From a virus, in the IMG/VR virus record IMGVR_UViG_3300025889_000087, positions 32,110 to 96,109 of that record: DNA of 64,000 nucleotides; one strand, given 5' to 3'. Position 1 is the stretch's first letter. Each line of letters starts with the position of its first letter. This document shows positions 2,130 to 45,358 of the stretch, in pieces. The notes under the pieces were generated by a model. The model worked only from the letters and a program-made list of their open reading frames with translations, was not told where the DNA came from and did not search any database. A program made the position numbers and the translations under genes.

Positions 2130-2147
2130 GGTTCATGCACCCCTCGC

Positions 2148-4362: not shown

Positions 4363-4363
4363 A

Positions 4364-6981: not shown

Positions 6982-7020
6982 GTGATTCCGCACGAACCGC
7001 GGAGAGAAAAACGTGGCGGT
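6979..7020 (-). promoter_or_regulatory. Putative leaderless promoter, copy 1 of a duplicated upstream element
   Basis: Minus strand ACCGCCACGTTTTTCTCTCCGCGGTTCGTGCGGAATCACATG, a near-copy of 7488-7529. Confidence 0.55.
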
Positions 7021-20248: not shown

Positions 20249-20250
20249 GC

Positions 20251-28603: not shown

Positions 28604-29162
28604 TGATGAACCGCGGGAGGTTCGGGATTGGTGGGTGGTCTGCCCCGGTGCAACACCCCCAATTCTCGCTACCGATGATGAATCGCTGAGCGTGTTTGAC
28701 ACAACCCGTGTCTTCCTTAGCGAATACGACAGGGAGAGGGTCGCCAGTCTGCTGAAGAACGGGAAGTGGCGGCAAATCTACATCGTGGAGACCCTGTTCC
28801 TGACCCTTCCTCAGAACCCCATATTCGGTATTGCGCTTTTGGAATTGTGCGAGCGCATTCCCCACGACCTGATGTCCGACATTCTCGCTCTCTCGCACAA
28901 TGGGACGGGGCGGCACCGCATTTTGTTCCCGCCTAAGAGGAATAAGATCACCCCCTCTTTGCTGAAGGCGTTCGGATTGCGTGGTTCTGAGGAAGAATGG
29001 GTGCCCGTTCTTGCAGAAAACGAAGCCTTCGTGCGCATGGTAGCAGGTGCAATCAAGCCCGAAGACTGGTCCAAAATCCCATTCAAGCGGGAGCAAATCA
29101 CGACCGCTTCGTTTAATACCCCAACCCCTGTGGGCGGGATGCAACCGGAGGAACGCGCATGA
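28590..29162 (+). CDS. Hypothetical protein next to the clamp loader
   Basis: GTG 28590 after GGAGGTG; coupled to RFC. Confidence 0.65.
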   Translation: MHLFDDEPREVRDWWVVCPGATPPILATDDESLSVFDTTRVFLSEYDRERVASLLKNGKWRQIYIVETLFLTLPQNPIFGIALLELCERIPHDLMSDILALSHNGTGRHRILFPPKRNKITPSLLKAFGLRGSEEEWVPVLAENEAFVRMVAGAIKPEDWSKIPFKREQITTASFNTPTPVGGMQPEERA

Positions 29163-30100
29163 CTCAACTTTGGCTCAAATACCGACCCGACACCATGCGG
29201 AACATGGTGGGCCTTGAGGCATTGAAGAAGGATTCAGCCTCTTGGGTCGTCGGTGGCAACCTGCGTTGCGGCGGCGTCATCTTCTATGGGAAGCCGGGGA
29301 CGGGAAAGACGACCGCTGCCCGTGCCTTCGCAAAGGACGCGCTCGGTTCGTCCTTTGAGGCCAATTTCCACGTCTTCAACGCCTCGGACGACCGAGGCAT
29401 CGCCTTTGTGCGCGACCGCCTGAAGCCTCTCGCTGAGCAGAAGGCCACGGGTCACGGCTTCAAGGTCATCAATCTCGATGAGGCGGATGGCCTCACGGTG
29501 GACGCGCAGGAAGCCATGCGCCAAGTCATCGAAACGACGAGCCCCCACGTCCTGTGGATCCTCACCTGCAACCGCGTGGGCCGTATCATTCCGGCTCTCC
29601 GCTCCCGACTCCCCTCGTATCAGTTCGGTGGGCTTGAGGGCGATGAGTCTGAAGCCTTCCTTGAGCATGTGATGCGCAGCGAGTCGTTCCCCGAACAGTG
29701 GATTACGCATGTTCCTGCGCTCATCAAGCACACCAACGGGGACATGCGGGCCTGCCTGAAAACGCTCCAAGTCTGCGACCCGAGCGACGATTCCTCGCTC
29801 ATCGTGATGCTCAACGCGAACCGCACGGAGGTCCACAACGTCCACGCCCTCGTTTGCGACAAACAGTGGGCGGTTGCGCTTGAGCGCATCGAGCACGTCG
29901 GCCCCATGGGCCGCGACGACTTCATCACTTCCTTCCACGACTCCATCATGCTTCGCCTGAAAGACGGGACCATCGAAGCAAACGTCGCGCTGCTGCAATT
30001 GCTCATCCTCGGGCAGTGGGCCGCGCGTTCCTCGGACTGGGTAGCCGGGGATTTCCTATTCCTCCGAGCCATGCTCGGGGATTACATGAAGAGGTGCTGA
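29159..30100 (+). CDS. rfcS: Replication factor C small subunit (clamp loader)
   Basis: WLKYRP, GKPGTGKTT, FNASDDRGI, LDEADGLT, ALRSR, GDMRACL. Confidence 0.95.
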   Translation: MTQLWLKYRPDTMRNMVGLEALKKDSASWVVGGNLRCGGVIFYGKPGTGKTTAARAFAKDALGSSFEANFHVFNASDDRGIAFVRDRLKPLAEQKATGHGFKVINLDEADGLTVDAQEAMRQVIETTSPHVLWILTCNRVGRIIPALRSRLPSYQFGGLEGDESEAFLEHVMRSESFPEQWITHVPALIKHTNGDMRACLKTLQVCDPSDDSSLIVMLNANRTEVHNVHALVCDKQWAVALERIEHVGPMGRDDFITSFHDSIMLRLKDGTIEANVALLQLLILGQWAARSSDWVAGDFLFLRAMLGDYMKRC

Positions 30101-31439: not shown

Positions 31440-32572
31440 TGTCGGGAACAGGATTCCTTGACGGATTCAAGGCCAAGTCGGGCTCCTTTGAGCCCGCCCC
31501 GAAGGCGGAGAAACCGCCTGCGGAGAAGAAGGCCGCTCCGGCCCCCGTGGAGGCCGCTCCTGCGCCTGCGAAGGCCAAGGCAGACCCTCCGACCCTTCCG
31601 ACCCCTCCACCGGCCCCTGTGGCCTCTCAGACGGGCGGAAGTGCGGCGAGCCGCCTCATCCGTGCTGCGCGAGCCGCGGCGAGCCGCGACCTGCAATACG
31701 TCATGTGCGGCATCGCCGGACATCCCAAGACAGGAAAGACGGGTATGGTCCTCGACTCCCTGACCTCCAAAGAAATTGAGGCGGGTGCTGAGATTTGGCA
31801 CATTGACTTCGACCTCGGCGGTGAAACGACGAAGGCTGCTCACCACAAGGACAAGGCGGCGAACATCGTCGTCATCAATCCTTGGGTGTTCAATTACGCC
31901 GAGGACGCGCGGGTGCCTTACGACTTCCCGGCGACCTTTCAACAGACCGTGGACATCCTCAAGGCTGCGCAGGCTCAAATGCAGGAGCAGAACGCTCACT
32001 TTGAGCAGCACGGCGAGATGCCGAAGCCATACCTGAAGACGGTCATTTTCGACGGTGCCGACCACTGGCTGCACATCACGGAGACCTGCATGAAGGTGGA
32101 CGACCTCGGCCTCGGTGCTGACGGCATCGACGTGGCGGGGAAGAAGGCGACGACTCAGATCGGTCGCTTCAATTGGAACATCCGCGCCACACGTTATCAG
32201 ACCGCCATGATTGGTCTTCGTGAGTTGTGTCGCGGTGGTGTCCACTGCTACATCATCACCCACATGAAGCCCGCATACGACTCCAACGGCAACGAATTGG
32301 TCGGGCAGGATTCCGCGAAGTGGCTCCGCGACACGGAGGGTCATTTGCAGCAGGTGGTCTACACCGAAGTCGAGGACGAGCGCGACGAGAACGGAATGCT
32401 CACGGGCGTGACCCGTGCGTATGCACGAGTCGTGTCAAACCGCACATCCCTTAGCGCGGGTGGCCGTGTCCTCTTGTTTGAGCAAGGTCCTGACGGCGGG
32501 AATTGGTTTGGTTGGGATGGCCTCAAGACCGGCAATTTTGACGCGGAAAAGGAAGAAGGGGGTGAGCAGTGA
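31436..32572 (+). CDS. RecA/RadA-like (AAA_24/Sak4-type) ATPase
   Basis: GHPKTGKT, HIDFD, VIFDG, IITH; Pro/Ala-rich N-terminus. Confidence 0.75.
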   Translation: MMSGTGFLDGFKAKSGSFEPAPKAEKPPAEKKAAPAPVEAAPAPAKAKADPPTLPTPPPAPVASQTGGSAASRLIRAARAAASRDLQYVMCGIAGHPKTGKTGMVLDSLTSKEIEAGAEIWHIDFDLGGETTKAAHHKDKAANIVVINPWVFNYAEDARVPYDFPATFQQTVDILKAAQAQMQEQNAHFEQHGEMPKPYLKTVIFDGADHWLHITETCMKVDDLGLGADGIDVAGKKATTQIGRFNWNIRATRYQTAMIGLRELCRGGVHCYIITHMKPAYDSNGNELVGQDSAKWLRDTEGHLQQVVYTEVEDERDENGMLTGVTRAYARVVSNRTSLSAGGRVLLFEQGPDGGNWFGWDGLKTGNFDAEKEEGGEQ

Positions 32573-33378
32573 TGGCGTCCTTCACGCTCCCGCAGCACCA
32601 CCTCGCGGCATTCTTGAAGCCGTTCGCCTCCATGGACGATCTCGTGGTCACGGTCAGCGACGACCGCATCTCCGCGGCGGGGACTTTGGAGCGGGCGTTT
32701 TACATTGAGCGTTGGAACACGACAGACACCACGAACGAAGAAGGCTCAATCACCCTCGGGCAAATCTCCCTTGTGCTCGGTCTCCTGAAGGGGCTCGGTG
32801 ACGGCAGCGTGTCCATCACCGTCGAATCCGATGAGGACAACGTGACGTTCACGGGGCCGAAGGGCTTCTTCCGCCTCCCTGTGCTCGCCGCCGCTTCCTC
32901 AGCCGCAGGCGTCGAGGCCGTGTCCGGTATGCTCCGCGAATCGGAAGCGAACAATTGGGTGTCGTTCGGCACGAACGGCACATTTGATTACGAAGCCCAA
33001 TTCACCGCGAGCGACTTCCGCGTCCTGCGGTCGGTTGGCTCGGGCATCAGCAGCGGTGCGCTTTTCGCCATCATTTGCGAGGGATGGGCACAACCGGCCA
33101 TCACATACGCCGTGGTGCGCGACAGTGTGCGCGTGGAGCACACGCTCGATCCTGAGTCCATGGTGTGCGAAACGGAAGACGCCATCACGCAGTGGTTCGG
33201 AAAGTGGCTCGCTGACGCCATCAAGGCCATGCCCGGAAGCGGGAATGTCACGCTGCGGGGCGGCAACGACTGTCCCCTCATCATCTCACACCAATACGCC
33301 GATGAGGAAAACGGGGTGCAGACGGGAACCACGGTCGTGATTGCTCCCCGGCAGGAAGACGCCGGGGGAGCGGCGTGA
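32569..33378 (+). CDS. PCNA-like sliding clamp
   Basis: ~270 aa, acidic; clamp-like C-terminus (VTLRGGNDCPLII...VIAPR); directly upstream of PolB and near RFC. Confidence 0.75.
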   Translation: MMASFTLPQHHLAAFLKPFASMDDLVVTVSDDRISAAGTLERAFYIERWNTTDTTNEEGSITLGQISLVLGLLKGLGDGSVSITVESDEDNVTFTGPKGFFRLPVLAAASSAAGVEAVSGMLRESEANNWVSFGTNGTFDYEAQFTASDFRVLRSVGSGISSGALFAIICEGWAQPAITYAVVRDSVRVEHTLDPESMVCETEDAITQWFGKWLADAIKAMPGSGNVTLRGGNDCPLIISHQYADEENGVQTGTTVVIAPRQEDAGGAA

Positions 33379-35627
33379 TTGTCGAACCCTTCGTCACGAA
33401 CGAGGGACGCTTCGCAATTTTTCTGCGATACCGCGACCCTGCGGACGGTTCGCTCGTGCAGGGCTCGGTGCCGTTCAGGCACTACCTGTTCATGGAAAGG
33501 GACGAGGTGGACCGCCTCTCCGAAATGTTCGACCAACGCTTCTTCGGTTGGTCGATCGGGGAGAAGACCGCAATATCCCTCGACGGGCGGCACTTGGTGC
33601 AGGTGGAGGCCAACGAGCCCTCCGACGTTCGCGCTATGTCCAAGATGTGCGGCGATTCATGGGAAGCAGACATTCGCTATGCAGACCGCTTTTGCATCGA
33701 CAACATTACGGTGGAGGAATGGCCCGATTGGTATTCGCACGTTGTGCGAGCCGGTGGCTTCGACATGGAATGGAATGAGCAGGGTGAAATCACCGCTATG
33801 GGATTCACCACGAACGGCGTGGACGTGGAGCAGTTCGCGTGGCATCCCGTCCACGGAGAGCACCACACCGAATCGGAAATGCTCACTGCCTTCGCGGAAC
33901 GCTTCGTTGAATTGGACCCTGACCTTGTGACTACATGGGCAGGGAACCGTGCAGACTGGCCCAAGGTCTACGAGCGATACCGCGCCTGCGGCCTCCCTCT
34001 CAATTGGGCCACGCCGATTCAAGACACCACATCGCCCCCGATGAAGCACCTGCCCCGAAGCGGCGTCTATGAGGAAGGAACGCAGGTCCTTCTCGGTCGC
34101 CTCACCCTCGATCTTGCCGACAGGAACCACGGCTTTGAGCGCGTTTGGAGGGACGGTGGGAACGGCCAATTGTCCGACCGCCGCCTCGCTTCGGTGGGTC
34201 GCCTCCTTTGGCCCGACAACCCCGAATTGTGGAAGGTGGACACGGATGGTAGGACTCATCACGAATTGTGGATGAACCATTGGGAGGATTTTCTGTATTA
34301 TCACCGCGGTGACATTCTGCTCACCGACCGAATCGATCAGTCATACCACGTTAGCCGCTTCTTCATGGCTCTTCAGCGGGTGTGTGGCGTTCCCTTTTCC
34401 TCCGTGTTCACGGTGAGCGCGTTTGCCCGTGGGCTCCTGCGCCGTCGTGCGACGTGGGCCGCACCCACTGGTGTGAAGGGCGCGGAGGACTCATACCCCG
34501 GAGGATTTGTCGCTAAACCCATCACAGGACGCCACCCTCATGTTGGGGTGTTCGACTTCCGAGCCATGTATGCTGAAATCCAACGCGGCAACAACATTTC
34601 TCCCGAGATGATTCGGCAGGAGCCCACCGAGCATACGCGCACTGTGGGGAACGGCACACATTGGGACCAACGCTCCATGGGCGTTCTCCCACAATTGCAG
34701 ATTGACCTCGCGGATGCGAGGAACGCAGCCAAGGCGGAGATGAAAAAACACGCGCCCGATTCATCGGAATACGCAGGATTCAACACCCTGCAATTGGCAT
34801 TCAAGAGGGCGGCTGCCTCGGTATATGGACTCATGGGGCACACGGGTCATGGTGAATCACACAGGAAAGTTGCCGAGACAATTACCTATGTTGGTCGCGC
34901 CCTCGTGTCGCGCCTCATGGAGTTATGCGACGAAATGGGCTACCCTGCGCTCGCGGGGCATACGGACAGTGCCTACATTTCCATTGGAGAAGCCGATGGT
35001 GAGAAAATCGCAGCCGATTTGACGGAGCGCATTCAGAAGGAGTTCGACACCGATCGCTTCGTGGTCGAGTTTGAGAAGTTCATGGTGGCTTGGGTGGCCG
35101 CGAAGAAGAACCGCAATTTCGGGTGGGTCGTGTGGCCCAAAACGGACCTGCACTGCACGGGCTTTGAGTTCAAGAAGAGCAACGCATCACAAATCACCAA
35201 GGATGTGCAGGGTGAGGCATTCATCGCCCTGACGCGCGACAACGCCACGCGCGAGGAAATCGACGCCATCGTGTTCAAGCACATTCAACGGGTCAGGAGC
35301 GGCGAAGTGCCGCGTCAGGATCTCACGATGCGCTCACGCCTCGGGCAGAAGCCGGAGGCATACGACAACGCGGGCGGCTTTCAGGGAGCAGCACGTCGCT
35401 ACAACATGACCGCTGAGCACAAGTTTGCACAGGGTGACGGTGTTCCCCACCTTTACACCGTCCGAGGCATTGAGGCTTTTCGCACGGACGAGGAAAGAGA
35501 TGCGCTGACGCTTGACCTTACGACCATTGTTGAGAAGCAGGTCATTTCACCCATTTCGCTTATCTATGAAGCCATGGGATGGCCTGAACCAACCCCCGAC
35601 GCTTCGCGCCCCGTTGCACTATGGTGA
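33375..35627 (+). CDS. polB: Family B DNA polymerase
   Basis: Exo I FDME, motif A FDFRAMY, motif B QLAFKRAAASVYG, motif C GHTDS, KKNRNFG. Confidence 0.95.
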   Translation: MIVEPFVTNEGRFAIFLRYRDPADGSLVQGSVPFRHYLFMERDEVDRLSEMFDQRFFGWSIGEKTAISLDGRHLVQVEANEPSDVRAMSKMCGDSWEADIRYADRFCIDNITVEEWPDWYSHVVRAGGFDMEWNEQGEITAMGFTTNGVDVEQFAWHPVHGEHHTESEMLTAFAERFVELDPDLVTTWAGNRADWPKVYERYRACGLPLNWATPIQDTTSPPMKHLPRSGVYEEGTQVLLGRLTLDLADRNHGFERVWRDGGNGQLSDRRLASVGRLLWPDNPELWKVDTDGRTHHELWMNHWEDFLYYHRGDILLTDRIDQSYHVSRFFMALQRVCGVPFSSVFTVSAFARGLLRRRATWAAPTGVKGAEDSYPGGFVAKPITGRHPHVGVFDFRAMYAEIQRGNNISPEMIRQEPTEHTRTVGNGTHWDQRSMGVLPQLQIDLADARNAAKAEMKKHAPDSSEYAGFNTLQLAFKRAAASVYGLMGHTGHGESHRKVAETITYVGRALVSRLMELCDEMGYPALAGHTDSAYISIGEADGEKIAADLTERIQKEFDTDRFVVEFEKFMVAWVAAKKNRNFGWVVWPKTDLHCTGFEFKKSNASQITKDVQGEAFIALTRDNATREEIDAIVFKHIQRVRSGEVPRQDLTMRSRLGQKPEAYDNAGGFQGAARRYNMTAEHKFAQGDGVPHLYTVRGIEAFRTDEERDALTLDLTTIVEKQVISPISLIYEAMGWPEPTPDASRPVALW

Positions 35628-36587: not shown

Positions 36588-38474
36588 ATGGCTTACGAAC
36601 TCATCAACGGGGATTGCATCGATGTTATGTCGAAGATGGAGGATTGCTCCGTGGACGCAATCGTGACCGATCCGCCATACGGTCTGTCATTCATGGGGAA
36701 AGATTGGGACGACCCCTCAAAGATGGCGGGTCAGGTCGAATGGGGAACGCCCGGAGCACACACCCGCGGCTATGTCGATGTGGACATGGTGAAGTTTCAG
36801 CGTTGGACTGAGGCTTGGGCGAAAGAGGCATTTCGCATTCTGAAACCCGGTGGACACATCATCTCGTTCGCGGGCTCCCGCACCTATCACCGCATGGCCT
36901 GTGCCATCGAAGACGCCGGTTTTGAGATCCGCGACCAAATCATGTGGCTCTATGGGACCGGATTTCCGAAGTCCCTCAACGTGAGCAAAGCCATAGACAA
37001 AGCCGCAGGGAGGTATGTTGATGGAGAAGTCCTTCCTTCATCACTAAAGGTGAAAGGCCCGTTGGGATTTCACATGAAGGAGAACACGTCGGAAAACCCA
37101 CAGACTGATGAGGCAAAACAATGGAGCGGTTGGGGGACGGCTCTCAAGCCCGCACATGAGCCGTGCGTTTTAGCACGAAAGCCCCTCGTTGGAACGGTGA
37201 CTGAGAACGTGCTTGAGCACGGAACAGGGGCGTTGAACATTGATGATTGCCGAATTGAAGGCCCCGCTTGGTCACGAACGGGAACCATGGGTGACATACG
37301 AGGTGGTAATTTTGGGAGCGGCATAGAGCACAAGAAGCGAGACGATCTCGGTAAATTGGAGAAGGGGGGCAGCCGTCGTTGGCCCGCCAACATCATTCTC
37401 AGCCATCACCCCGAATGCACCCGTGTTGGGACCCTCAGCCCCGCCCATGAACCATGTGTTTTAGCACGAAAGCCCCTTGATGGGACGGTGACTGAGAACG
37501 TGCTTGAGCATGGGACAGGGGCCTTGAACATTGACGATTGCCGAATTGGGACGGGCGAAGACCGGACTTCGGGTGGGGAAAGTGGTTCGGCGGCATCATC
37601 GGTGCTTCAGGACGGGTTTCATCAGCGCAGGCAAGAAAGGCCAACCGGCGGTCGTTGGCCCGCCAACATCATTCTCAGCCATAACCCCGAATGCACCCAT
37701 GTTGGCCTGAAGACGGTCAAGGGCAACGGCCATGCCCCCGCCCTTGGGAAAGGAAATCCGTTTGGAGGAAACAACGACACGGAGCGCGAAGAACGCCATT
37801 TCAACGAAGAAGTCGTGGAAAACTGGGAATGCGTGGAGGATTGTCCCGTGCGTATTCTTGATGAACAGGCTCCATCGGTGGGCAACGCCTTCTCGTCGGA
37901 TCGAAAGACGGACACAACGGGCGGCACGGGCAATTCGTGGTCCACTTCATCAAAGAATGTGGGGGACGGCAACGGTGTGTTTGATGGATTGTCCGGCGCA
38001 TCCAAGTTCTTCTATTGCGCCAAGCCGTCCAAGTCCGAGCGCAACGCGGGCCTTGATGAATTGGAGGAAACCGCGCGGTCATTGGTGGGTCAGACGCATT
38101 GGACCAACGAATGCGGGGACTGTGGGCGCAGGTGGCCGCAGCAGGAGTCCGTGTGCCTGAAGTGTGGCGGTGAATTGGTTCGTGAATCAAGGGACCCTCC
38201 CGTCGCAAAGAACCACCACCCCACGGTGAAGCCTGTGGACTTGATGCGCTACCTGTGCCGCCTCATCACGCCGCCCGGTGGCGTCGTTCTCGACCCGTTC
38301 ATGGGGAGCGGGACGACAGGTATTGCTGCGACAAACGAGGGCTTCCACTTCATCGGTATTGAGATGGAAGAGGACTACATCGACATAGCCCGAAGGCGCA
38401 TCGCTCATTGGGTAGAAGAGAGAGAAGTGGTCATCCGCGAGCAACGAGCACAACGGAGCCTTTTTGATTTCTGA
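36588..38474 (+). CDS. N6/N4 DNA methyltransferase (beta group) with internal duplication and C-terminal PIP-box-like motif
   Basis: VTDPPY, HPTVKP, LDPFMGSGTT; start MAYELING; ends QRSLFDF. Confidence 0.92.
   Translation: MAYELINGDCIDVMSKMEDCSVDAIVTDPPYGLSFMGKDWDDPSKMAGQVEWGTPGAHTRGYVDVDMVKFQRWTEAWAKEAFRILKPGGHIISFAGSRTYHRMACAIEDAGFEIRDQIMWLYGTGFPKSLNVSKAIDKAAGRYVDGEVLPSSLKVKGPLGFHMKENTSENPQTDEAKQWSGWGTALKPAHEPCVLARKPLVGTVTENVLEHGTGALNIDDCRIEGPAWSRTGTMGDIRGGNFGSGIEHKKRDDLGKLEKGGSRRWPANIILSHHPECTRVGTLSPAHEPCVLARKPLDGTVTENVLEHGTGALNIDDCRIGTGEDRTSGGESGSAASSVLQDGFHQRRQERPTGGRWPANIILSHNPECTHVGLKTVKGNGHAPALGKGNPFGGNNDTEREERHFNEEVVENWECVEDCPVRILDEQAPSVGNAFSSDRKTDTTGGTGNSWSTSSKNVGDGNGVFDGLSGASKFFYCAKPSKSERNAGLDELEETARSLVGQTHWTNECGDCGRRWPQQESVCLKCGGELVRESRDPPVAKNHHPTVKPVDLMRYLCRLITPPGGVVLDPFMGSGTTGIAATNEGFHFIGIEMEEDYIDIARRRIAHWVEEREVVIREQRAQRSLFDF
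37143..37706 (+). repeat. In-frame tandem duplication inside the methyltransferase
   Basis: PAHEPCVLARKPL.GTVTENVLEHGTGALNIDDCRI and RWPANIILSH.PECT.VG each occur twice, flanking different middle segments. Confidence 0.95.
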
Positions 38475-38482
38475 GGTGATTT

Positions 38483-39631
38483 ATGGTGAATTACGAAGTT
38501 TTGGTCGGCGATTGCCGAGAGACGCTGAAGACGTTGCCGGACGAGTCCGTGCATTGTGTCGTCACATCGCCCCCGTATTTCGGGCTGAGGGACTACGGGA
38601 CCGGCAAATGGGAAGGTGGCGATTCCGAATGTGACCACAAAATGTCGGAGGGGGAACTCGACCCTAAGAGAGCAGGTGGAGATGCCGGTTCTTCCCACAC
38701 GGTCAGATTCAATCGAGAAAGGTGCCACAAATGCGGAGCCAAGAGGATAGATGACCAAATCGGCCTTGAGCCAACACCCGAAGATTTTGTCGTAGCCTTG
38801 GTCGAAGTCTTCCGCGAAGTGCGCCGCGTTCTCAGGGACGATGGGACGGTGTGGCTGAACTTGGGCGATTCCTATGCAGGATCATGGGGCAACTACGGCG
38901 GCGAGAATCGCGGCAATGGCACACAACGAGAAATCACGAACGGTAGTCAAGTCAAAGATCATACCGAGCGATACGGCCTGTATTGCCCGCCTACCGCCAA
39001 CGTGCCGGGGCTGAAACCGAAGGACTTGATAGGCATTCCGTGGCGCGTTGCATTCGCTTTGCAGGCCGATGGGTGGTATTTGCGTCAGGACATTGTTTGG
39101 TCGAAACCCAACCCGATGCCGGAGTCGGTTAAAGACCGTTGCACCAAATCACACGAATACGTCTTCCTGCTCACCAAGTCGCCTCGGTATTGCTTTGATA
39201 ATGAGGCGATTAAGGAACCTGCAAAGACTGACGACCCAAGGCGGCCTTACACGTCGAAGGGCGCAAAAGACATGGACGGGAGGGCTGAATGGAAGTCCGG
39301 GCAACGACGTGACGGCGATGATTTTACGACCCGAAACCGTCGTTCGGTATGGACCGTCACCACCAAACCGTTCAAGGGAGCGCACTTCGCCACTTACCCG
39401 CCTGACTTGATCGAGCCGTGTATTTTGGCCGGTTGCCCCGAAGGAGGGACTGTTCTCGATCCGTTCGGTGGCTCAGGGACCACCGCAGGTGTCGCGCTCA
39501 AGCACGGTCGCAAAGCCATTCTTTGTGAACTGAACCCTGAATACGCCGCCCTTATCCCCCGCCGCATCGAAAACATCCTCGGCTATAACCCCGAAGAACG
39601 CGAGAAGCAGCGTTCACTGCTTGATTTCTGA
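38483..39631 (+). CDS. DNA methyltransferase, probably N4-cytosine (beta group), with C-terminal PIP-box-like motif
   Basis: VTSPPY, HFATYP, LDPFGGSGTT; ends QRSLLDF. Confidence 0.92.
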   Translation: MVNYEVLVGDCRETLKTLPDESVHCVVTSPPYFGLRDYGTGKWEGGDSECDHKMSEGELDPKRAGGDAGSSHTVRFNRERCHKCGAKRIDDQIGLEPTPEDFVVALVEVFREVRRVLRDDGTVWLNLGDSYAGSWGNYGGENRGNGTQREITNGSQVKDHTERYGLYCPPTANVPGLKPKDLIGIPWRVAFALQADGWYLRQDIVWSKPNPMPESVKDRCTKSHEYVFLLTKSPRYCFDNEAIKEPAKTDDPRRPYTSKGAKDMDGRAEWKSGQRRDGDDFTTRNRRSVWTVTTKPFKGAHFATYPPDLIEPCILAGCPEGGTVLDPFGGSGTTAGVALKHGRKAILCELNPEYAALIPRRIENILGYNPEEREKQRSLLDF

Positions 39632-39641
39632 GGTGTTCACC

Positions 39642-40700
39642 ATGAGTCACCTGTTCCGTCATTTCCCCCGCGAGGTGGATATGCGGAAAAGGAAGGTCGT
39701 CCATTCAATGGAAGAATTGCAGCGATACGTTGCTGCGACCAACGGGGCAGACAACATCACCACGACGGTGTATGGCTTTCGTGAATTGAAGGGCACTGGA
39801 AAGCGCGGCGAATACGCCACCGCCATTGTGCCTCACTTCGTCATCGACATGGACTACGAGCGAGCCAAGGTGAACGGGCGAACGGACTCCGAGGCAGGAG
39901 ATAGGTGCATCCAAGAAGCCTCCATGCTTCATCGCCACCTGCTGAGCAACGACATTCGGCACGCCATGTGGTTCACTGGTGGCGGCCTGCACACTTGGGT
40001 GTCGCTCGATAAGACACATTACCCCGACGGGCGCGGTATGTCCGACTTGATGCGAACAGGACGGCGCATCGTGGATGGGTGGGTCAGGGAGTTCAACCTG
40101 AGCACGCTCGATCCTGTCGTGTCTTTCCGCCCCGACCGGCATATTCGCATCCCCAATTCGTTCAACTTCAAGCGTGGCCTGTGGGGCTTCCCTGTGTCCA
40201 CCGAGGACCTGTCCCTCTCATGGAAGGACTTCCTCGACCGCGCCGCCGAGCCACACGGAGGAATGCACCCATACGGCACAAACGGCCTCGTGCTCGACAT
40301 AAAGGTGCAGGACGACGTGGAGTTCGACGCGCAGCCTGTGGAAATTGACATGAAGCGCGTGGGCTCAATGAACGTCCTACCTTGTTTGGCTGAGGCTGCT
40401 TGTGAGCAGGCAAACCCTCCCCACGAGCCGAGGGCGTTCCTGATGATGTTTCTCATGGATCGGCTGCGCTCCTTTGCACGCCCACCGCGCTCTTCGCCAG
40501 TGAGCCATGAGAGCATAGTGGAGAGCGTTTGCTCTTTCATTGAGGACTTGAAGTGGTCCGATTATAACCCCGAAATCACACGAATGCACGCAGAACATGG
40601 CGTCAAGAGGTATTACCTGACACCGACGTGCCGAACCCTATATGAGCGAGGCTACTGCCTCGGTAAATGTCCGTTTTATGACGGGAGCGCGGGAACATGA
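39642..40700 (+). CDS. Archaeo-eukaryotic primase, PriS-PriL-like fusion
   Basis: FVIDMD, TGGGLH, HIRIPNS; C-terminal LPCL...PTCRTL...YCLGKC. Confidence 0.88.
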   Translation: MSHLFRHFPREVDMRKRKVVHSMEELQRYVAATNGADNITTTVYGFRELKGTGKRGEYATAIVPHFVIDMDYERAKVNGRTDSEAGDRCIQEASMLHRHLLSNDIRHAMWFTGGGLHTWVSLDKTHYPDGRGMSDLMRTGRRIVDGWVREFNLSTLDPVVSFRPDRHIRIPNSFNFKRGLWGFPVSTEDLSLSWKDFLDRAAEPHGGMHPYGTNGLVLDIKVQDDVEFDAQPVEIDMKRVGSMNVLPCLAEAACEQANPPHEPRAFLMMFLMDRLRSFARPPRSSPVSHESIVESVCSFIEDLKWSDYNPEITRMHAEHGVKRYYLTPTCRTLYERGYCLGKCPFYDGSAGT

Positions 40701-41017
40701 GCGAAGACATCGAGGCAATTCGTCGCAAACGACTGAAGGAACTTCAGGAGAAGGCGAACGCAGTTCAGGAACAGGTCGAGGAAATACACGCCATGCAGCG
40801 TGAGTTCTCATGGGAAGACTTTGGCTATAAAGAGCCGGAATGGGGCTTCCGTGAGAGCAAAGAGATGCCGGGTGCCTTCGACATTTGCCAAAAAAGGCAG
40901 ACAGTGGCCCTGACCGGCGATCCGCAATTCGCCATGCTCGTCACCGATTTGCTCAACCGAGCGCGGTTGGAGGAATTGACTTTGAACAGGGGTGAGAATG
41001 ATGGCAAAGAAGATTGA
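40697..41017 (+). CDS. Small protein with PDCD5-like N-terminus
   Basis: MSEDIEAIRRKRLKELQ. Confidence 0.6.
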   Translation: MSEDIEAIRRKRLKELQEKANAVQEQVEEIHAMQREFSWEDFGYKEPEWGFRESKEMPGAFDICQKRQTVALTGDPQFAMLVTDLLNRARLEELTLNRGENDGKED

Positions 41018-41117
41018 ATTATGCCGTAAATGTGGTCGGACCACGAACGTGGTTCACCCTCTCCGTGGCCTTTGCCTCCCCTGCATCCGCAGTGCCCGTC
41101 AGGAGGCGAAGCAGTGA
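40998..41117 (+). CDS. Micro Zn-finger protein
   Basis: Manual translation MMAKKIELCRKCGRTTNVVHPLRGLCLPCIRSARQEAKQ; stop overlaps GTG 41114. Confidence 0.6.
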   Translation: MMAKKIELCRKCGRTTNVVHPLRGLCLPCIRSARQEAKQ

Positions 41118-41812
41118 AGACAATTTACATTGACAATCGAGAGCGTTCGGGCCTTGAGGAATTGGTGAAGAAGCACGCAGCGAAGGCCAAAATCACCTGC
41201 ACGGTGCAGGAGAACATGCTCAGTGACTATTCCTTCGGGGAAGTCGGCATTGAGGCCAAGACCATGGAGGACTTCTTTCAGTCACTTCACAGTGGACACC
41301 TTGTTCGTCAATTGGACAACATGGATGACAACCTGAGCCGTTATGTGCTCGTCATCCATGGGACGTTAGACAGGTATGTCGCGGGACTGAAGCGGCGTGG
41401 TCGCTATGTGTCGTATTCGTCCATCGAAGACCAATTTATCGGTGCGCTCGCCCGCTTTGACGTGGACTATGACGTGACGATTATGCACTTCATCACCACT
41501 TCAGCAGCGGCTCGGTGGATCGTGAAGCGTTGTGAGAAGGACGGGACCGTTGGCTCAAGCAGCACCCGCACCCTTCGCAGAACCGCGTCGGAGGACGTGC
41601 GCATTGATGCCCTGCGGGCCATTGGGTGCAGCGAGGCCCAAGCCAAAGCACTGCTCGACAAGTTCGGCTCCCTCGTGGAAATTAGCGCGGCAACGAAGAA
41701 GGAATTGATGACCTTAGATGGCATTGGGAAAATCCGAGCCGACGCAATTCACACAGGCCTCACAAGTGAGCAGCCTGTGGTGAAGGAGAGGGTCAAGACG
41801 GGGACCGCGTAA
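41114..41812 (+). CDS. ERCC4/XPF-family nuclease with HhH motifs
   Basis: IYIDNRE, SDY, GIEAKTMEDF, LDGIGKIRA. Confidence 0.9.
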   Translation: MKTIYIDNRERSGLEELVKKHAAKAKITCTVQENMLSDYSFGEVGIEAKTMEDFFQSLHSGHLVRQLDNMDDNLSRYVLVIHGTLDRYVAGLKRRGRYVSYSSIEDQFIGALARFDVDYDVTIMHFITTSAAARWIVKRCEKDGTVGSSSTRTLRRTASEDVRIDALRAIGCSEAQAKALLDKFGSLVEISAATKKELMTLDGIGKIRADAIHTGLTSEQPVVKERVKTGTA

Positions 41813-41861
41813 GCATCCTTTATGACGTGGTGTTGGATGGGAGAGAACCGGAGGTTTGGGG

Positions 41862-43391
41862 ATGCTTAGACTGGAAGCCACCACTGCTGCGAATCGACAG
41901 TGGGACGACTACATGGTCGTGAATGCCGAGAATGACGGCGCACGCTTCATTCGCGGCTACATCGAGCGGTTCAACACAGTGTCATTCTTCAATGAGTTCG
42001 CAGGCTTGCTCTCTTTCTTCTTCGTGATGGGACAGGTTTGCGCCCCATACATGCGCATTCCCATTCACGGCACCTTCATTGATTGCCGCGTTCACACCTA
42101 TTGGATTCAACAATCCCGAACGGGGAAGTCAATTGCATGGGAGTTCACCGACCGGCTGCTTGAGGCTCTCGGTATTCAAAGCGAGACCTTTACCGCAGGT
42201 TCGGACGCGCGTTTGATTGGAACAATTGAGAGCCGACCAGTCATTGACGAAAACGGTCGTCCAACGGGAGAAATGGACCACATCGTCATTCCCGGCCTAC
42301 TGAACGGCTACAAGTCGATTCTTTTTGATGAGGCGAGCGTTCTTCTTAACGATCAGAAGTCGTATTTCAGCGATAAAATCCTGTATTTGCAGCAGGCCAT
42401 GGCCCCGCTCGGTTCGCGCACAAACGTGATGGTGAAGCACCTTGTCGGTGGTTCCGTCTATACGCCTTCGGGCGTTTCCCTGTGGATGACCACCTTCCCC
42501 CCAAAGGACATTATGCACCATGTGCTCGACAAGGGGTTCTTTCAGCGTGTGTTCCTCTTTCAGAATGACGTGACCGTTGAGCAGCGACAAACGGTCAGCG
42601 AGCACCGTGTCGCAGGTGCGTATGTGCGCCCCGATGAACGCATCATGGACTATGAAACGCTCGCGGGCTTCATTTCCGAATGCACTGACTTGATGAAAAA
42701 CCGCCTCTTTGACGCTATGGGCCTCGTGGACGAAATCGCTGAACGGCGTGACGAGGAAGGCAACGTCGCCGTCTATACCGTCAGTCGTGAGGAAGTGTGG
42801 AACCGCATGTCGGACGAAGATCGTGAGCGTGCCGCCATGGACCACGCATACGACATTTTCACCACGTCACCGGGCTATCACGCTGCCATCTTCAACGCCA
42901 ACGACGACTACTACTCACTGGTTCATAGCATCACCAACGAGAACGTCCGAGAAACGGCCATGTCCTTCATCCCCAACATTGAGAATTACACCTTCATTTT
43001 TTCAAATCTGATTGCGGTTATCATGCGCTCCGAAGTCGTCACTGAAGACCATGTGATGATGGCCTCGGAAATCATCTACGACAATTTTCACAACCTGATT
43101 ATTTGGCTTGAGCAGAAGCAGAACGTCACCGACAAGAAGCGTATTGCCGCTGAGCGCGGAGCGTGGGAGTCGGCCTATGGGGCGTGCAGGAAATACGTCG
43201 ATGAGCGCGACGGGGTGGAGCGAGCCATGCAAACAGAATTGCTTGAGATTTACGCCACGCAGCAGTGCATCGCTAACATCACCGCCCAACGCCGCTTCAA
43301 GCAATTGAAGGACAGTCAGCAGGTCAAAATTGTGAAGTCCGGTGCAGGTGGTCGGAACTTCGTGACACTCGCATGGGGCGGTTCATCGTGA
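41862..43391 (+). CDS. P-loop ATPase, probable divergent MCM-like replicative helicase
   Basis: SRTGKS, PGLL, ILFDEAS, GFFQR; wHTH-like C-terminus; TATA-like CTTTATGA at 41818. Confidence 0.6.
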   Translation: MLRLEATTAANRQWDDYMVVNAENDGARFIRGYIERFNTVSFFNEFAGLLSFFFVMGQVCAPYMRIPIHGTFIDCRVHTYWIQQSRTGKSIAWEFTDRLLEALGIQSETFTAGSDARLIGTIESRPVIDENGRPTGEMDHIVIPGLLNGYKSILFDEASVLLNDQKSYFSDKILYLQQAMAPLGSRTNVMVKHLVGGSVYTPSGVSLWMTTFPPKDIMHHVLDKGFFQRVFLFQNDVTVEQRQTVSEHRVAGAYVRPDERIMDYETLAGFISECTDLMKNRLFDAMGLVDEIAERRDEEGNVAVYTVSREEVWNRMSDEDRERAAMDHAYDIFTTSPGYHAAIFNANDDYYSLVHSITNENVRETAMSFIPNIENYTFIFSNLIAVIMRSEVVTEDHVMMASEIIYDNFHNLIIWLEQKQNVTDKKRIAAERGAWESAYGACRKYVDERDGVERAMQTELLEIYATQQCIANITAQRRFKQLKDSQQVKIVKSGAGGRNFVTLAWGGSS

Positions 43392-43978
43392 ATAGCAGGG
43401 AAGGAATCTGTGCGGTGTTTGATGCAAACATCGAAGCGGCGGGGTATCGGGGAGATGCCGAAATCGTTCTCATCGCCGTCGTTGGCGACAGGCGCACGAT
43501 TTACACTGACTTGTGGAGCGACGAAAGAGCGGCAATTATTGAGCGCACCCACAATTGCGAAATCCTTGGCCTTTCGTCCTTCGATCCGACACTTCCATAT
43601 GTCGGCCACAACATTCCTCAGCAATTCCCCGCGAACGATGCGTTCGACCTAATGGCGGAAGCGCAGAAAGTGAGCGCAGAAGTGCTTCAGAACGAAGGGA
43701 AGAGATATGCCCTGTCCGACTTGGCGAGGGCGAACTTACCTATTCACTCTCCAATCGGGGCACTTGAGTTCCTCACAATTGTGGACTACATGCGCTCTTT
43801 TTCCTTGTTCCGAAGCGGCAGGGAGCGCACCATGGCGAGGCAAGTCCTTCACACTGCTGATATGTGCCGCCGCTTGTTCAATACCGTGGTGAAAAAGAAG
43901 CGTCTTCGCTTCCTGAACCCGCAGACAGGAAAGAAGGCCCATGCTGAAGTGCGTTGGATGATTCAGGAGGAAGAATGA
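43388..43978 (+). CDS. Hypothetical protein, possibly a degenerate RNase H-like exonuclease
   Basis: AVFDANIE, YVGHNI, LSDLARANL; GTGA overlap. Confidence 0.55.
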   Translation: MNSREGICAVFDANIEAAGYRGDAEIVLIAVVGDRRTIYTDLWSDERAAIIERTHNCEILGLSSFDPTLPYVGHNIPQQFPANDAFDLMAEAQKVSAEVLQNEGKRYALSDLARANLPIHSPIGALEFLTIVDYMRSFSLFRSGRERTMARQVLHTADMCRRLFNTVVKKKRLRFLNPQTGKKAHAEVRWMIQEEE

Positions 43979-44161
43979 ATGCCGTGGCGGTGGGTTGAAT
44001 GCAAGACATGCAAACGTCTTCGGTGGTCTATTGCCAAGCACCCTCGGTGCAACACTGGCTCGTGCGTTTCGCAACGCTGCCGTGATGCAGATCCGCAGCC
44101 ACCTGCACCCAAGGAAAAGAAGGAAGTGAAGTGCCAAAGGTTTGATTGGGGAGGTGCATGA
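43979..44161 (+). CDS. Small Cys-rich protein
   Basis: CKTC...C...C pattern. Confidence 0.55.
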   Translation: MPWRWVECKTCKRLRWSIAKHPRCNTGSCVSQRCRDADPQPPAPKEKKEVKCQRFDWGGA

Positions 44162-44164
44162 GTT

Positions 44165-45358
44165 ATGGGCGTGTGGGGCCACGTTGAGGGCATGGTGGGC
44201 GGTTGGTCGGTCTTGAAAGGCGGGGTGTGGGAGGGGAGATTCCTTGACGACATTAGGGAAGCCGACCCCGCGATCCAATCCATTCTAAGCCAATATAAGG
44301 CCGGAACGCTGAAAAAATTGCCACAACTGCCGTGGAAGGAAGGAAAAAAGGCAACGGTCCCTTGGACGGCCATGCGCGACGAAGGAATTGGATTCGCGGA
44401 CCTTGAGGGCTTCAACAACCCCGAAGGCAACATGCTTCCGGCCCCGCTTAATTGGACCGGCGGAAAAACACTGATTATGCCATACCTGCGAGGCATCCGG
44501 CAGAAACTCGACGGTGACTTCATACCCGCCGAATTGTTTGGTGGCAGCGGTTCGTTCATTTTCGGCATGAATGACCCGCGGGCTCGCGGCCTCTATGGCG
44601 ACATCAACCCCGATCTCACCAATCTCATGCAGCATCTCAAGGGGGGTATCGGAGAGGTGCGTATTCCGCGCGACAAGGAAGAGATGCGGGGAATGATTGA
44701 TCGCATGAATGAATTGCGCGAACGGCGCGATGTGGGAGGCCACGCGCTTGCGCACCATCAGTCGGAAGAACTCGCACGTCTGTTGCTCGGCACAAACCTT
44801 CAGACCCGCGACGGGATATTTCGATACGAACCTTGGGGGGTTGATGTAGACGGATATACGGATGGGCGCATCAAGATGCCTTCATTCCGTCAAGCCGGAA
44901 CCGGGGCCAATTATCGGGTGATGCCTTGGGAAGTGGGTTCGCTTGATTACGGACCGTATGCAGAAAGGCTCGCAAACGTGGACATCCACACTGGCCCCAT
45001 CACCGATACGGCCCGCCATTTGACGCCTGAGCATCTGCTTTATCTCGATCCGCCGTATCTGACCCGTGACATCGACTACGGCGGGGCGGATGAACAAAAA
45101 GCAGGAAAGACTCTCGATGACGAACTGCAAATGGACGCACTGCGTATTGGTGCTGAACACGAAGGTCCTGTCATCTTGTCGAATTACCTTTACGACAAAA
45201 ACACGGGTGAGCCACTACACGACTACATCGACGCTTTGCAGGAGCACGGATTCACCATCCACCCATGGATTAGAAAACCGAAGGGGACCAAGAACCCGCA
45301 GGTCGAAGCCATCGCTACACGCAACATCCCCACGGATGTGCAATCTACCCTGTTCTGA
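44165..45358 (+). CDS. Dam-like (D12 class, alpha group) N6-adenine DNA methyltransferase
   Basis: PLNWTGGK, ELFGGSGS, GDINPDL, LYLDPPY, VILSN; N-terminal extension with WSVLKG; ends QSTLF. Confidence 0.88.
   Translation: MGVWGHVEGMVGGWSVLKGGVWEGRFLDDIREADPAIQSILSQYKAGTLKKLPQLPWKEGKKATVPWTAMRDEGIGFADLEGFNNPEGNMLPAPLNWTGGKTLIMPYLRGIRQKLDGDFIPAELFGGSGSFIFGMNDPRARGLYGDINPDLTNLMQHLKGGIGEVRIPRDKEEMRGMIDRMNELRERRDVGGHALAHHQSEELARLLLGTNLQTRDGIFRYEPWGVDVDGYTDGRIKMPSFRQAGTGANYRVMPWEVGSLDYGPYAERLANVDIHTGPITDTARHLTPEHLLYLDPPYLTRDIDYGGADEQKAGKTLDDELQMDALRIGAEHEGPVILSNYLYDKNTGEPLHDYIDALQEHGFTIHPWIRKPKGTKNPQVEAIATRNIPTDVQSTLF

What the first reader, a model, noticed from the sequence alone, without database searches (positions are those of the whole stretch)
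38451..45358. Viral methyltransferases end in PCNA-interacting motifs: replication-coupled methylation
Seen: the C-termini are QRSLFDF (38451-38474), QRSLLDF (39608-39631) and QSTLF (45341-45358). The first two also share the junction GATTTCTGAGGTG. Known: QxxLxxF(F) is the archaeal PIP box, and clamp-tethered methylation is known for eukaryotic DNMT1. A clamp and loader are encoded in the same operon. Inference: the MTases ride the sliding clamp and methylate nascent viral DNA before host restriction acts; the PIP tail behaves as a portable module.
Basis: partly seen in the sequence, partly recalled or inferred. Interest (0 to 1): 0.7.

Follow-up and report, generated by a model that had tools for sequence, protein, structure and literature searches.

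The report
Clamp-docking tails on viral DNA methylases
In this uncultured ~96-kb marine tailed virus, three DNA methyltransferases of different families end in the same short Gln-x-x-Leu-aromatic peptide. In relatives this peptide is carried by whichever methylase sits in the slot, becomes a textbook PCNA-binding box, and in one case matches the tail of the DNA polymerase. The enzymes therefore most likely dock on the virus's own PCNA-like sliding clamp and mark DNA at the replication fork, but binding is still untested.

Summary
MT1 (36588-38474), MT2 (38483-39631) and MT3 (44165-45358) end in QRSLFDF, QRSLLDF and QSTLF. MT1 and MT2 share a 15-nt junction.

The window is part of a 96-kb IMG/VR virus. 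ORF 32569-33378 is a PCNA-type clamp by fold and by sequence profile. It sits with an RFC/gp44-like ATPase and a gp62/RFC-collar-like subunit.

- **Family-independent tails.** In about 40 related loci, four methylase families (two N6_N4 types, D12 and C5) carry such tails.
- **Specificity.** In four near-complete genomes, 9 of 11 methylases have a tail. None of about 356 other predicted genes matches the strict pattern.
- **Canonical boxes in orthologues.** Orthologues switch between the short form and canonical PIP boxes such as QENLNKYF and QMNISDWF.
- **Cassette swap.** Two ~92%-identical genomes swapped a C5 methylase for an N6_N4 methylase, and both keep the tail.
- **Shared with the polymerase.** In one relative the polymerase and a methylase end in almost the same seven residues.
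- **Bacterial cousins.** Phage homologues carry bacterial beta-clamp-like motifs at the same place.

Clamp docking is therefore well supported by comparison (about 0.7).

This scan's earlier AI notes report the same phenomenon on other DNA. I found no paper describing it.

The parts
36588..38474 (+). MT1, an N6_N4 DNA methyltransferase of 628 aa with a Zn-ribbon insert. Its C-terminal tail is QRSLFDF (38451-38471).
   Evidence: PF01555 at E 1e-37. The tail R..Q..L is invariant in 8 orthologues of 57-81% identity. The start was taken at the ATG after the stop of the upstream nuclease.
38483..39631 (+). MT2, an N6_N4 DNA methyltransferase of 382 aa. Its tail is QRSLLDF (39608-39628). The gene is absent at this position in the 80%-identical relative L002.
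   Evidence: PF01555 at E 5e-47, with the domain ending at residue 358 of 382. L002 goes straight from MT1 to the primase-like gene. Orthologue tails are QRTLFDW, QQTLF and QKTFDDWW.
44165..45358 (+). MT3, a D12-class (Dam-type) methyltransferase of 397 aa. Its tail is QSTLF (45341-45355). Its N-terminus resembles the leader of the effector array.
   Evidence: PF02086 at E 2e-9. Among 28 database homologues, tails range from Q..LF to canonical PIP boxes.
38464..38478 (+). Copy 1 of the 15-nt direct repeat TTGATTTCTGAGGTG, which covers the last tail codons, the stop and the RBS.
39621..39635 (+). Copy 2 of the 15-nt direct repeat. It bounds the 1157-bp MT2 insertion.
32569..33378 (+). PCNA-type sliding clamp of 269 aa.
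   Evidence: No Pfam or PHROG hit. AF2 model at pLDDT 90. Foldseek top hits are archaeal PCNAs at E 6e-15. The family profile hits T. kodakarensis PCNA1 at E 3.7e-4, with ..CPL.. and ..IAPRQE motifs aligned to PCNA GNEMPL and LLAPRVEE.
29159..30100 (+). Clamp-loader AAA+ ATPase (RFC small subunit / T4 gp44-like).
   Evidence: PF00004 and PF13177. NCBIfam archaeal RFC small subunit at E 9e-48, against DnaX at 3e-16. The nearest Atlas clusters are viral 'sliding-clamp-loader large subunit'.
28590..29162 (+). Clamp-loader accessory subunit (gp62 / RFC-collar-like). The start is uncertain, since the ORF opens at 28404. This copy lacks the tail that most orthologues have.
   Evidence: It always lies just upstream of the loader ATPase. 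VIA-align gives Z 7.2 to T4 gp62, then RFC collar domains at Z 5.5-6.5, then a drop to Z 2.9. Orthologue tails are QDALF, QGALF, GATLW and SLFDGDWG...
33375..35627 (+). Family-B DNA polymerase. It ends in RPVALW (35607-35624).
   Evidence: PF00136 and PF03104. Orthologue tails all end hydrophobic-aromatic: SLW, EWW, PLF, KYW. In L106 the polymerase tail (QPAVYW) matches a methylase tail (QPATYW).
24277..25698 (+). MT4, an N6_N4 methyltransferase fused to an Mrr-type nuclease domain. It has no tail and serves as the contrast case.
   Evidence: PF01555 at E 3e-43 plus PF04471 at E 2e-6; the protein ends ..GRWVS. An orthologue in L022 is also tail-less.

Best explanation
The C-terminal peptides are sliding-clamp docking motifs of the PIP-box type. 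There is a long form, Q-x-x-L-F-[DE]-[FW], and a short form, Q-x-x-L-[FW], both at the free C-terminus on a roughly 20-residue linker after the catalytic domain.

They tether otherwise ordinary, probably active orphan DNA methyltransferases to a PCNA-type clamp. The most likely partner is the virus-encoded clamp (32569-33378), which is loaded by the virus's own two-subunit loader. This would concentrate the enzymes on freshly replicated viral DNA so that new strands are modified at the fork.

Because the tail is short and autonomous, any incoming methylase cassette that carries or acquires it becomes a clamp client. The tail-stop-RBS junction also serves as a recombination point for cassette exchange.

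**Shown:** the motif, its conservation, its family-independence, its portability, the PCNA-type clamp and the loader.
**Inferred:** binding, the identity of the clamp bound, replication coupling and the anti-restriction benefit.
For: 1. **Clamp and pocket.** The clamp is PCNA-type by fold and by profile. The Pro-Leu and Ala-Pro-Arg motifs are invariant or near-invariant in the viral family. From my knowledge of human PCNA (P234, A252-P253), these line the PIP pocket.
2. **Same slot, different families.** In 32 loci sharing this clamp, homologues of MT1, MT2 and MT3, plus C5 methylases (PF00145), all end in Q..L[FW]([DE][FW]).
3. **Specificity.** In four near-complete genomes, 9 of 11 Pfam-detected methylases carry a Q-tail. 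None of about 356 other predicted genes matches the strict pattern, where 0.3 is expected.
4. **Canonical PIP boxes in orthologues.**
   - The D12 family has QENLNKYF, QQNLDRFF, QQRLDRF and QSSLSEY beside QQKTLF and QRRLF.
   - The MT1 family has QPTLFDFL, QPSLLDFL, QMNISDWF and QPTLMDF. Q-type tails occur in 47 of 118 homologues, against a shuffle mean of 3.8 and maximum of 10.
   - The published consensus is Qxxhxxaa, with example KTTQSTLDSFFK (PMC4929162).
5. **Peptide-level selection.** Both Gln codons and six Leu codons are used, and Ser appears as AGC, TCA or TCG.
6. **Cassette swap.** L013 and L014 are ~92% identical except for a C5 body of 920 bp against an N6_N4 body of 1301 bp. The swap lies between the start codon and the last three tail codons, and both bodies bring their own Q..L. 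L064 has three consecutive methylases, C5 then N6_N4 then N6_N4, all with PIP-like tails.
7. **Same tail type on bona fide clamp partners.**
   - The loader's collar subunit ends QDALF, QGALF or SLFDGDWG.
   - The polymerase always ends hydrophobic-aromatic.
   - In L106 the polymerase and a methylase end QPAVYW and QPATYW, with different synonymous codons.
   - 17 of 118 MT1-type homologues end ..KP[KQ]AEWL, like the polymerase's ..KPQEWW.
8. **Domain-matched motifs.** Homologues in cultured bacteriophages carry beta-clamp-like QLDLL, QMDVF and QAELF at the same place.
Against:
- In this window the polymerase tail (RPVALW) has no Gln and differs from the methylase tails. The loader collar subunit here has lost the tail.
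- QSTLF and the other short forms lack the aromatic residues at PIP positions 7 and 8.
- Two of the five methylases in this genome have no tail.
- The host is unknown. The terminase is nearest to Bacteroides phages at 29%, so an archaeal setting is not proven.
- MT3-type enzymes also carry an N-terminal leader shared with a putative virion-cargo array. This could mean they act before the viral clamp is made.
- Many counted tails are orthologous, so the number of independent acquisitions is small: about four to five enzyme families.
Confidence: 0.7

Rival explanations
1. The tails dock on the host's PCNA rather than, or as well as, the viral clamp. The methylases would then be recruited to any active fork early in infection. 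This fits especially for enzymes delivered with the virion.
For: - Orthologue tails include fully canonical cellular-type PIP boxes.
- MT3-type enzymes carry the N-terminal leader of the putative virion-cargo array (first-stage notes). They could therefore be present before the viral clamp is expressed.
Against: - Tail flavour tracks the viral polymerase tail within lineages: QPA[TV]YW in L106, and the EWW/EWL group. This points to the co-evolving viral clamp.
- The tailed methylases sit in the viral replication gene array.
- The host and its PCNA are unknown.
Confidence: 0.15
2. The virus is a bacteriophage and the short tails are bacterial beta-clamp-binding pentapeptides (QL[SD]LF-like) that dock on host DnaN.
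For: - The short form Q-x-x-L-F at the extreme C-terminus fits the bacterial consensus (established knowledge, Dalrymple 2001, from memory).
- Bacteriophage homologues of MT2 carry QLDLL, QMDVF and QAELF.
- The terminase is nearest to bacterial phages.
- The loader resembles T4 gp44/gp62.
Against: - The virus encodes its own PCNA-type clamp, with no beta or gp45 hit.
- The loader ATPase scores far better against archaeal RFC than against DnaX, and the nuclease is Hef/XPF-like.
- Orthologues have Qxxhxx[FYW][FYWL] boxes with eukaryote/archaea spacing.
Confidence: 0.06
3. The tails bind another hub or serve another role, with no clamp involvement. Examples are the single-strand-binding protein, the helicase-primase, a degradation tag or a packaging signal.
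For: - No binding data exist.
- Other replication proteins here also have conserved C-terminal tails of different kinds: p445 ends ..GFGVGGDE and the 378-aa ATPase ends ..GDF.V..GDE. Tail-mediated docking to several hubs is therefore plausible in this replisome.
Against: - The motif is the PIP consensus in many orthologues.
- It is shared with the clamp-loader subunit and the polymerase, the two classical clamp clients.
Confidence: 0.08
4. The similarity is a by-product of DNA-level constraints at gene junctions (stop codon, ribosome-binding site, translational coupling) or of chance.
For: The 15-nt repeat contains the stop and a GAGGTG Shine-Dalgarno-like sequence for the next gene.
Against: - Q and L are kept through many synonymous codons.
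- MT3's tail is followed by about 90 nt of non-coding DNA and no coupled gene.
- Tails occur with TGA or TAA stops and with unrelated downstream sequences.
- Enrichment over shuffles is more than tenfold.
Confidence: 0.01

Closest known systems
Archaeal C-terminal PIP-box clients of PCNA (Fen1, RFC large subunit, PolB, NucS, NreA; consensus Qxxhxxaa; PMC4929162)
   Same: - A short Q-x-x-L-x-x-aromatic peptide sits at the extreme C-terminus after a linker.
- A PCNA-type clamp is present.
- The loader subunit and the polymerase also carry terminal motifs.
- Orthologues have textbook boxes.
   Different: - The clients are DNA methyltransferases of four families, plus a PAPS-reductase-like enzyme. 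These are not replication or repair nucleases.
- Many tails are truncated to Q-x-x-L-[FW]-COOH.
- The clamp is virus-encoded and so divergent that Pfam misses it.
Eukaryotic DNMT1-PCNA coupling (maintenance methylation at the fork; reviewed in PMC9690074)
   Same: A DNA methyltransferase carries a PCNA-binding motif and is thought to act on newly replicated DNA.
   Different: - DNMT1's motif is internal and N-terminal, in a large multidomain C5 enzyme, and serves epigenetic inheritance.
- Here the enzymes are small orphan N6/N4/C5 types of a virus, with C-terminal tails and a presumed anti-restriction role.
Phage T4 gp45 clamp clients (gp43 polymerase, gp33 and gp55 with a C-terminal LDFL motif; PMC9690074)
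   Same: - A virus-encoded trimeric-type clamp comes with a gp44/gp62-type loader.
- Several non-polymerase proteins are hooked on through short hydrophobic C-terminal tails.
   Different: - The T4 clients are transcription factors, not DNA-modifying enzymes.
- The clamp here is PCNA-like rather than gp45-like, and the motif carries the PIP Gln.
Bacterial beta-clamp-binding motif QL[SD]LF (from memory: Dalrymple et al. 2001)
   Same: - It is a pentapeptide Q-x-x-L-F, often C-terminal.
- Bacteriophage homologues of MT2 and bacterial homologues of MT1 carry such motifs at the same position.
   Different: - It binds the dimeric beta clamp.
- This virus encodes a PCNA-type clamp, and its relatives use PIP spacing.

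Membership tests
PIP-box client of a PCNA-type clamp | Motif Q-x-x-[LIM]-x-x-[FYW]-[FYW] | tested here: inconclusive
   MT1 and MT2 fit positions 1, 4 and 7 but end before position 8. MT3 (QSTLF) fits only positions 1 and 4. Orthologues of MT1 and MT3 carry complete boxes.
PIP-box client of a PCNA-type clamp | Motif on a flexible terminus outside the folded domain | tested here: met
   The Pfam domains end at residue 358 of 382 in MT2 and about 601 of 627 in MT1. The analogous tail of the loader subunit has pLDDT below 50. The methylase tails themselves were not modelled.
PIP-box client of a PCNA-type clamp | Conservation of the motif in homologues under peptide-level selection | tested here: met
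PIP-box client of a PCNA-type clamp | A cognate PCNA is available | tested here: met
   The virus encodes a PCNA-type clamp. The host clamp is unknown.
PIP-box client of a PCNA-type clamp | Physical binding to the clamp's hydrophobic pocket | not testable with these tools
A bench assay or a multimer prediction is needed.
PCNA family (the clamp at 32569-33378) | Two-domain beta-alpha-beta clamp fold | tested here: met
   AF2 pLDDT 90 and pTM 0.87. Foldseek gives archaeal and eukaryotic PCNAs at E down to 6e-15, TM 0.63-0.76.
PCNA family (the clamp at 32569-33378) | Sequence-level homology | tested here: met
   The profile of 10 viral clamps hits Thermococcales PCNAs at E 3.7e-4 to 1e-3, including the C-terminal APR motif. 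There is no Pfam PCNA_N hit, so this is a very divergent member.
PCNA family (the clamp at 32569-33378) | Homotrimeric ring loaded by an RFC-type loader | not tested
   The loader genes are adjacent. Oligomeric state was not modelled.
Active DNA methyltransferases (PF01555, PF02086) | Family HMM match plus catalytic (D/S)PPY and SAM-binding FxGxG motifs | tested here: met
   Pfam matches. DPPY in MT1, SPPY in MT2 and DPPY in MT3, with F.GSG in all three, are visible in the translations. Activity and target sites are untested.
Bacterial beta-clamp-binding motif client | QL[SD]LF-like peptide together with a beta clamp as partner | tested here: inconclusive
   The short tails fit the peptide pattern. 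No beta clamp is encoded, the host is unknown, and relatives use PIP spacing.
Magroviruses (viruses of Marine Group II archaea) | A ~65-100 kb tailed virus with PolB, clamp, RFC, AEP primase, MCM, RadA-like ATPase and nucleases (PMC5434244) | tested here: inconclusive
   The gene content is similar, and relatives come from Tara and other marine sets. No reference sequences could be compared. The primase-like and helicase-like genes have no family hit.

The most novel reading that the evidence does not exclude
A general rule for prokaryotic viruses and some cells: DNA-modifying enzymes are sliding-clamp clients through a tiny autonomous C-terminal tail, so 'self' marks are written at the fork. 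This covers at least four methyltransferase families and a PAPS-reductase-like enzyme.

- **Tail flavour follows the clamp.** It is a PIP box with PCNA-type clamps, a QL[SD]LF-like motif in bacteriophages, and polymerase-like tails where the viral clamp has drifted.
- **Tail as recombination anchor.** The tail-stop-RBS junction doubles as the anchor that lets viruses swap methylase cassettes in one slot while keeping clamp coupling.
- **Possible selective marking.** If the viral clamp is selective, coupling could mark viral DNA only. That would let the tail-less methylase-Mrr fusion or other viral nucleases attack host DNA.
Probability: 0.4. Interest if true: 0.8.

Novelty: new variant of a known kind. 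Interest (0 to 1): 0.68.

Why it matters
Replication-coupled DNA methylation is textbook for eukaryotic DNMT1. It is not part of the standard picture of restriction-modification or of the virus-host arms race in prokaryotes.

If viral orphan methylases ride the clamp, this would explain how fast-replicating genomes stay fully protected. It would also explain why unrelated methylases can be exchanged in one genomic slot without loss of function, and why such short tails recur on methylases of archaea, their viruses and phages.

The idea is directly testable with peptides and a recombinant clamp. It would also give a sequence signature for predicting which methylases act at the fork.

Tried and rejected

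**Searches that found nothing useful**
- Megablast of 36-46 kb against cultured phages: no match.
- Clamp against phages by tblastn: none.
- Clamp profile against 185k species genomes: none, so no provirus or host bin.
- MT2 as a single protein against viral contigs: none.

**Host identification**
- No tRNAs.
- PolB is nearest to haloarchaeal tailed viruses at only 24%.
- The terminase is nearest to Bacteroides phages at 29%.
- Phmmer of the helicase-like and primase-like genes against PDB was empty.
- The TTCATATAC...GGTGTGG elements fit an archaeal TATA box but also resemble T4-late-type promoters, so they are not decisive.

**Literature**
- No paper in the library combines clamp-binding motifs with prokaryotic or viral DNA methyltransferases.
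- The three magrovirus papers I searched (PMC5434244, PMC11706807, PMC10160649) do not mention methylases.

**Rejected ideas**
- A recent DNA duplication as the origin of the MT1 and MT2 tails is rejected, because the codons differ.
- The match between the terminal residue of the polymerase and that of the methylases across about 8 lineages is only suggestive. I do not count it, apart from the explicit L106 and EWW/EWL cases.
- A 374-aa protein of G001 ending ..GRLF has only a sub-threshold PF00145 hit and was not counted as a methylase.

Full report
**What the window is.** The window is bases 32110-96109 of a 96,109-bp IMG/VR virus record estimated 91% complete. It is a tailed virus, with a large terminase and a portal. 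GC content is 58%. Relatives have 38-45% GC and come from marine sets, including Tara Oceans.

A tight co-directional array runs on the + strand from about 26.8 to 45.4 kb. It encodes, in order:
- a gp62/RFC-collar-like protein;
- an RFC/gp44-like ATPase;
- two proteins of unknown family, one with a P-loop;
- a clamp;
- a family-B polymerase;
- a PD-(D/E)XK nuclease;
- MT1 and MT2;
- a primase-like protein;
- an ERCC4-HhH nuclease;
- a P-loop protein of 511 aa;
- MT3.

These assignments rest.

MT1 ends QRSLFDF, MT2 ends QRSLLDF and MT3 ends QSTLF, at exactly the stated coordinates. The shared junction is a 15-nt exact repeat, 1157 nt apart. All three proteins are DNA methyltransferases with intact catalytic and SAM motifs. 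In the whole genome, no other ORF of 50 aa or more ends in such a clean motif.

**The clamp and loader are real.** ORF 32569-33378 has no Pfam or PHROG hit and only 13 relatives among 1.8 billion cluster representatives.
- An AF2 model built with 10 family members has pLDDT 90. It matches archaeal and eukaryotic PCNAs at E down to 6e-15.
- A profile of the family finds Thermococcales PCNAs by sequence at E 3.7e-4. It aligns the viral ..GGNDCPL.. and ..VIAPRQE.. with PCNA ..GNEMPL.. and ..LLAPRVEE. These positions are invariant or nearly so in the viral family. From my knowledge of human PCNA, they correspond to the pocket that receives PIP boxes.
- The ATPase scores best against archaeal RFC small subunit, at 9e-48 against 3e-16 for DnaX.
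- The ~190-aa protein always encoded just upstream of the ATPase has a clamp-loader collar domain. VIA-align gives Z 7.2 to T4 gp62, then RFC collars at 5.5-6.5, and the next unrelated hit is at 2.9.

**The tails are conserved and independent of enzyme family.** A profile search of viral contigs found 32 loci with this clamp at 24-45% identity, plus one at 80%.
- In these loci, homologues of MT1, MT2 and MT3 end in QRSLFDF, QKSLFDW, QRSLFEW, QRTLFDW, QQTLF, QTTLF, QKLLW, QKTFDDWW or QQRLF.
- An unbiased scan of all ORFs for the motif picked up four further proteins. All four proved to be C5 cytosine methylases, ending QRTLFEW, QKTLW, QMRLW and QKKLW.
- In four near-complete genomes, 9 of 11 Pfam-detected methylases carry a Q-tail. 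None of about 356 other predicted genes matches the strict pattern, where 0.3 is expected.
- The two tail-less enzymes are both in this genome. One is a methylase fused to an Mrr nuclease domain (24277-25698). The other is a second D12 enzyme outside the window.

**Selection acts on the peptide.** Across the tails, Gln is CAA or CAG, Leu uses six codons, and Ser is AGC, TCA or TCG. The tails end with TGA or TAA and are followed by unrelated sequences. MT3's tail is followed by non-coding DNA with a hairpin.

**The tail is portable.**
- L013 and L014 are ~92% identical over 20 kb, except that a 920-bp C5 methylase body replaces a 1301-bp N6_N4 body. The replacement lies exactly between the start codon and the last three tail codons, and each body brings its own Q-R-[ST]-L.
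- The 80%-identical relative L002 has MT1 followed directly by the primase-like gene. MT2 in the window is therefore an insertion bounded by the 15-nt repeat.
- The slot between the nuclease and the primase-like gene holds MT1, MT2, C5 enzymes, combinations of these, or nothing.
- L064 has three consecutive methylases (C5, N6_N4, N6_N4) ending QKSIFDF, QPSLLDFL.. and QIRLSDYW.

**The tail is a PIP box.** The published consensus is Qxxhxxaa, with the example KTTQSTLDSFFK (PMC4929162). Orthologues interconvert between the short form and full boxes.
- Among 28 homologues of MT3, tails include QQKTLF, QRRLF and QSALW. They also include QENLNKYF, QQNLDRFF, QQRLDRF and QSSLSEY.
- Among 118 homologues of MT1, 47 have Q-type tails, against a shuffle mean of 3.8 and maximum of 10. 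These include QPTLFDFL, QPSLLDFL, QMNISDWF and QPTLMDF, many on ~100-kb contigs.

**The same tails sit on classical clamp partners.**
- The loader collar subunit ends QDALF, QGALF, GATLW or ..SLFDGDWG.. in most relatives, although not in this window.
- The polymerase always ends hydrophobic-aromatic: RPVALW here, and SLW, EWW, PLF or KYW elsewhere.
- In L106, the polymerase ends ..QPAVYW and an N6_N4 methylase ends ..QPATYW, with different synonymous codons.
- 17 of 118 MT1-type homologues end ..KP[KQ]AEWL. A PAPS-reductase-like enzyme next to the polymerase ends ..PKEWW or ..PKELW. Both resemble the polymerase tail ..KPQEWW of the same lineage.

**Bacterial cousins carry the bacterial motif.**
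- MT2 homologues in cultured Pseudomonas and Bordetella phages have QLDLL, QMDVF and QAELF near the C-terminus.
- 18 of 119 database homologues of MT2 have Q..[LMIV][FWY] in the last 15 residues, against 0.7% in shuffles.
- MT1 homologues named as proteobacterial end ..ELPL, QLDLF or QLGLL.
- T4-like cyanophage copies end QNGLTDLL.. and QSPLLDAI...

**Mechanism.** The most likely reading (about 0.7) is that the tails dock the methylases on a PCNA-type clamp, probably the viral one, so that nascent viral DNA is modified at the fork. Binding, the choice of clamp, and the benefit against restriction are all inferred.

A caveat concerns MT3-type enzymes. They also begin with the leader shared by the array of putative virion-cargo proteins (first-stage notes). 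They may therefore arrive with the genome and use the host clamp first.

**Host.** The PCNA-type clamp, the RFC-like loader, the Hef/XPF-like nuclease and TATA-like upstream elements point to an archaeal host. Gene content resembles magroviruses (PMC5434244). Nothing proves this, however, and the terminase is nearest to bacterial phages.

**Novelty.** PIP-tailed PCNA clients and DNMT1-PCNA coupling are known (PMC4929162, PMC9690074). I found no paper on clamp-docking tails of prokaryotic or viral DNA methyltransferases. One review notes only that an adenine methylase co-purified with NucS and PCNA in P. abyssi. Earlier AI notes of this scan report the same phenomenon in other viruses and in Asgard archaea. 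These notes are leads, not evidence, but they agree with what I found here. I rate this a new variant of a known kind.

Noticed in passing
window 37143-37257 / 37434-37548 and 37372-37429 / 37648-37705: MT1 carries an in-frame internal tandem duplication of about 280-290 nt, with copies 89-95% identical. It repeats the ..KPAHEPCVLARKPL..NIDDCRI.. segment. The relative L002 (489 aa) lacks it.
   Followed up: partly
window 44165-44230 (MT3 N-terminus); P0135-P0160: MT3-type Dam methylases begin with the same AFDxAWxhhK|G-like leader as the array of putative virion-cargo proteins at 1-7490. In this window it is degenerate (..GGWSVLKG). In L062 the MT3 homologue sits inside such an array. These enzymes thus carry a leader at one end and a PIP-like tail at the other.
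   Followed up: partly
window 24277-25698: An N6_N4 methyltransferase is fused to an Mrr-type restriction nuclease domain and has no tail. It may be an offensive or discriminating nuclease-methylase rather than a fork-coupled one.
   Followed up: no
L009-L019, L031 (e.g. L011:13096-14055): A PAPS-reductase-domain protein (PF01507, ~318 aa) lies between the polymerase and the nuclease. It ends ..PKEWW or ..PKELW, like the polymerase's ..KPQEWW. It may be another clamp-tethered DNA-modification enzyme. It is absent from the window.
   Followed up: partly
window 8626, 14248, 17725, 18846, 23492: There are five copies of TTCATATAC(A/C)C..N..GGTGTGG, each 25-45 nt upstream of a start codon. They are TATA-like. 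They fit archaeal promoters, but T4-late-type promoters are not excluded.
   Followed up: partly
window 30102-31439 and 31436-32572: Two replication-module proteins without any family hit have their own strongly conserved C-terminal tails, ..DLGNL.GFGVGGDE and ..GDF.V..GDE. These may be docking peptides for other partners.
   Followed up: no
window 20167-21597: This SF2 helicase has its best NCBIfam match to the Dnd (phosphorothioation) system restriction enzyme, at E 2e-29 and below the family cut-off.
   Followed up: no
L003, L004 (Prochlorococcus phages P-SSM7, P-SSM2): The T4-like cyanophage homologues of MT2 have C-terminal extensions containing QNGLTDLL and QSPLLDAI. These may be gp45-clamp docking tails in cultured phages.
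   Followed up: no
window 2948-3706 and 6307-6993 (minus strand): Two proteins of the leader-bearing array end ..EDDWW and ..QWGLDVW, which are hydrophobic-aromatic C-termini of the same general kind. Their relation to the clamp tails is unknown.
   Followed up: no
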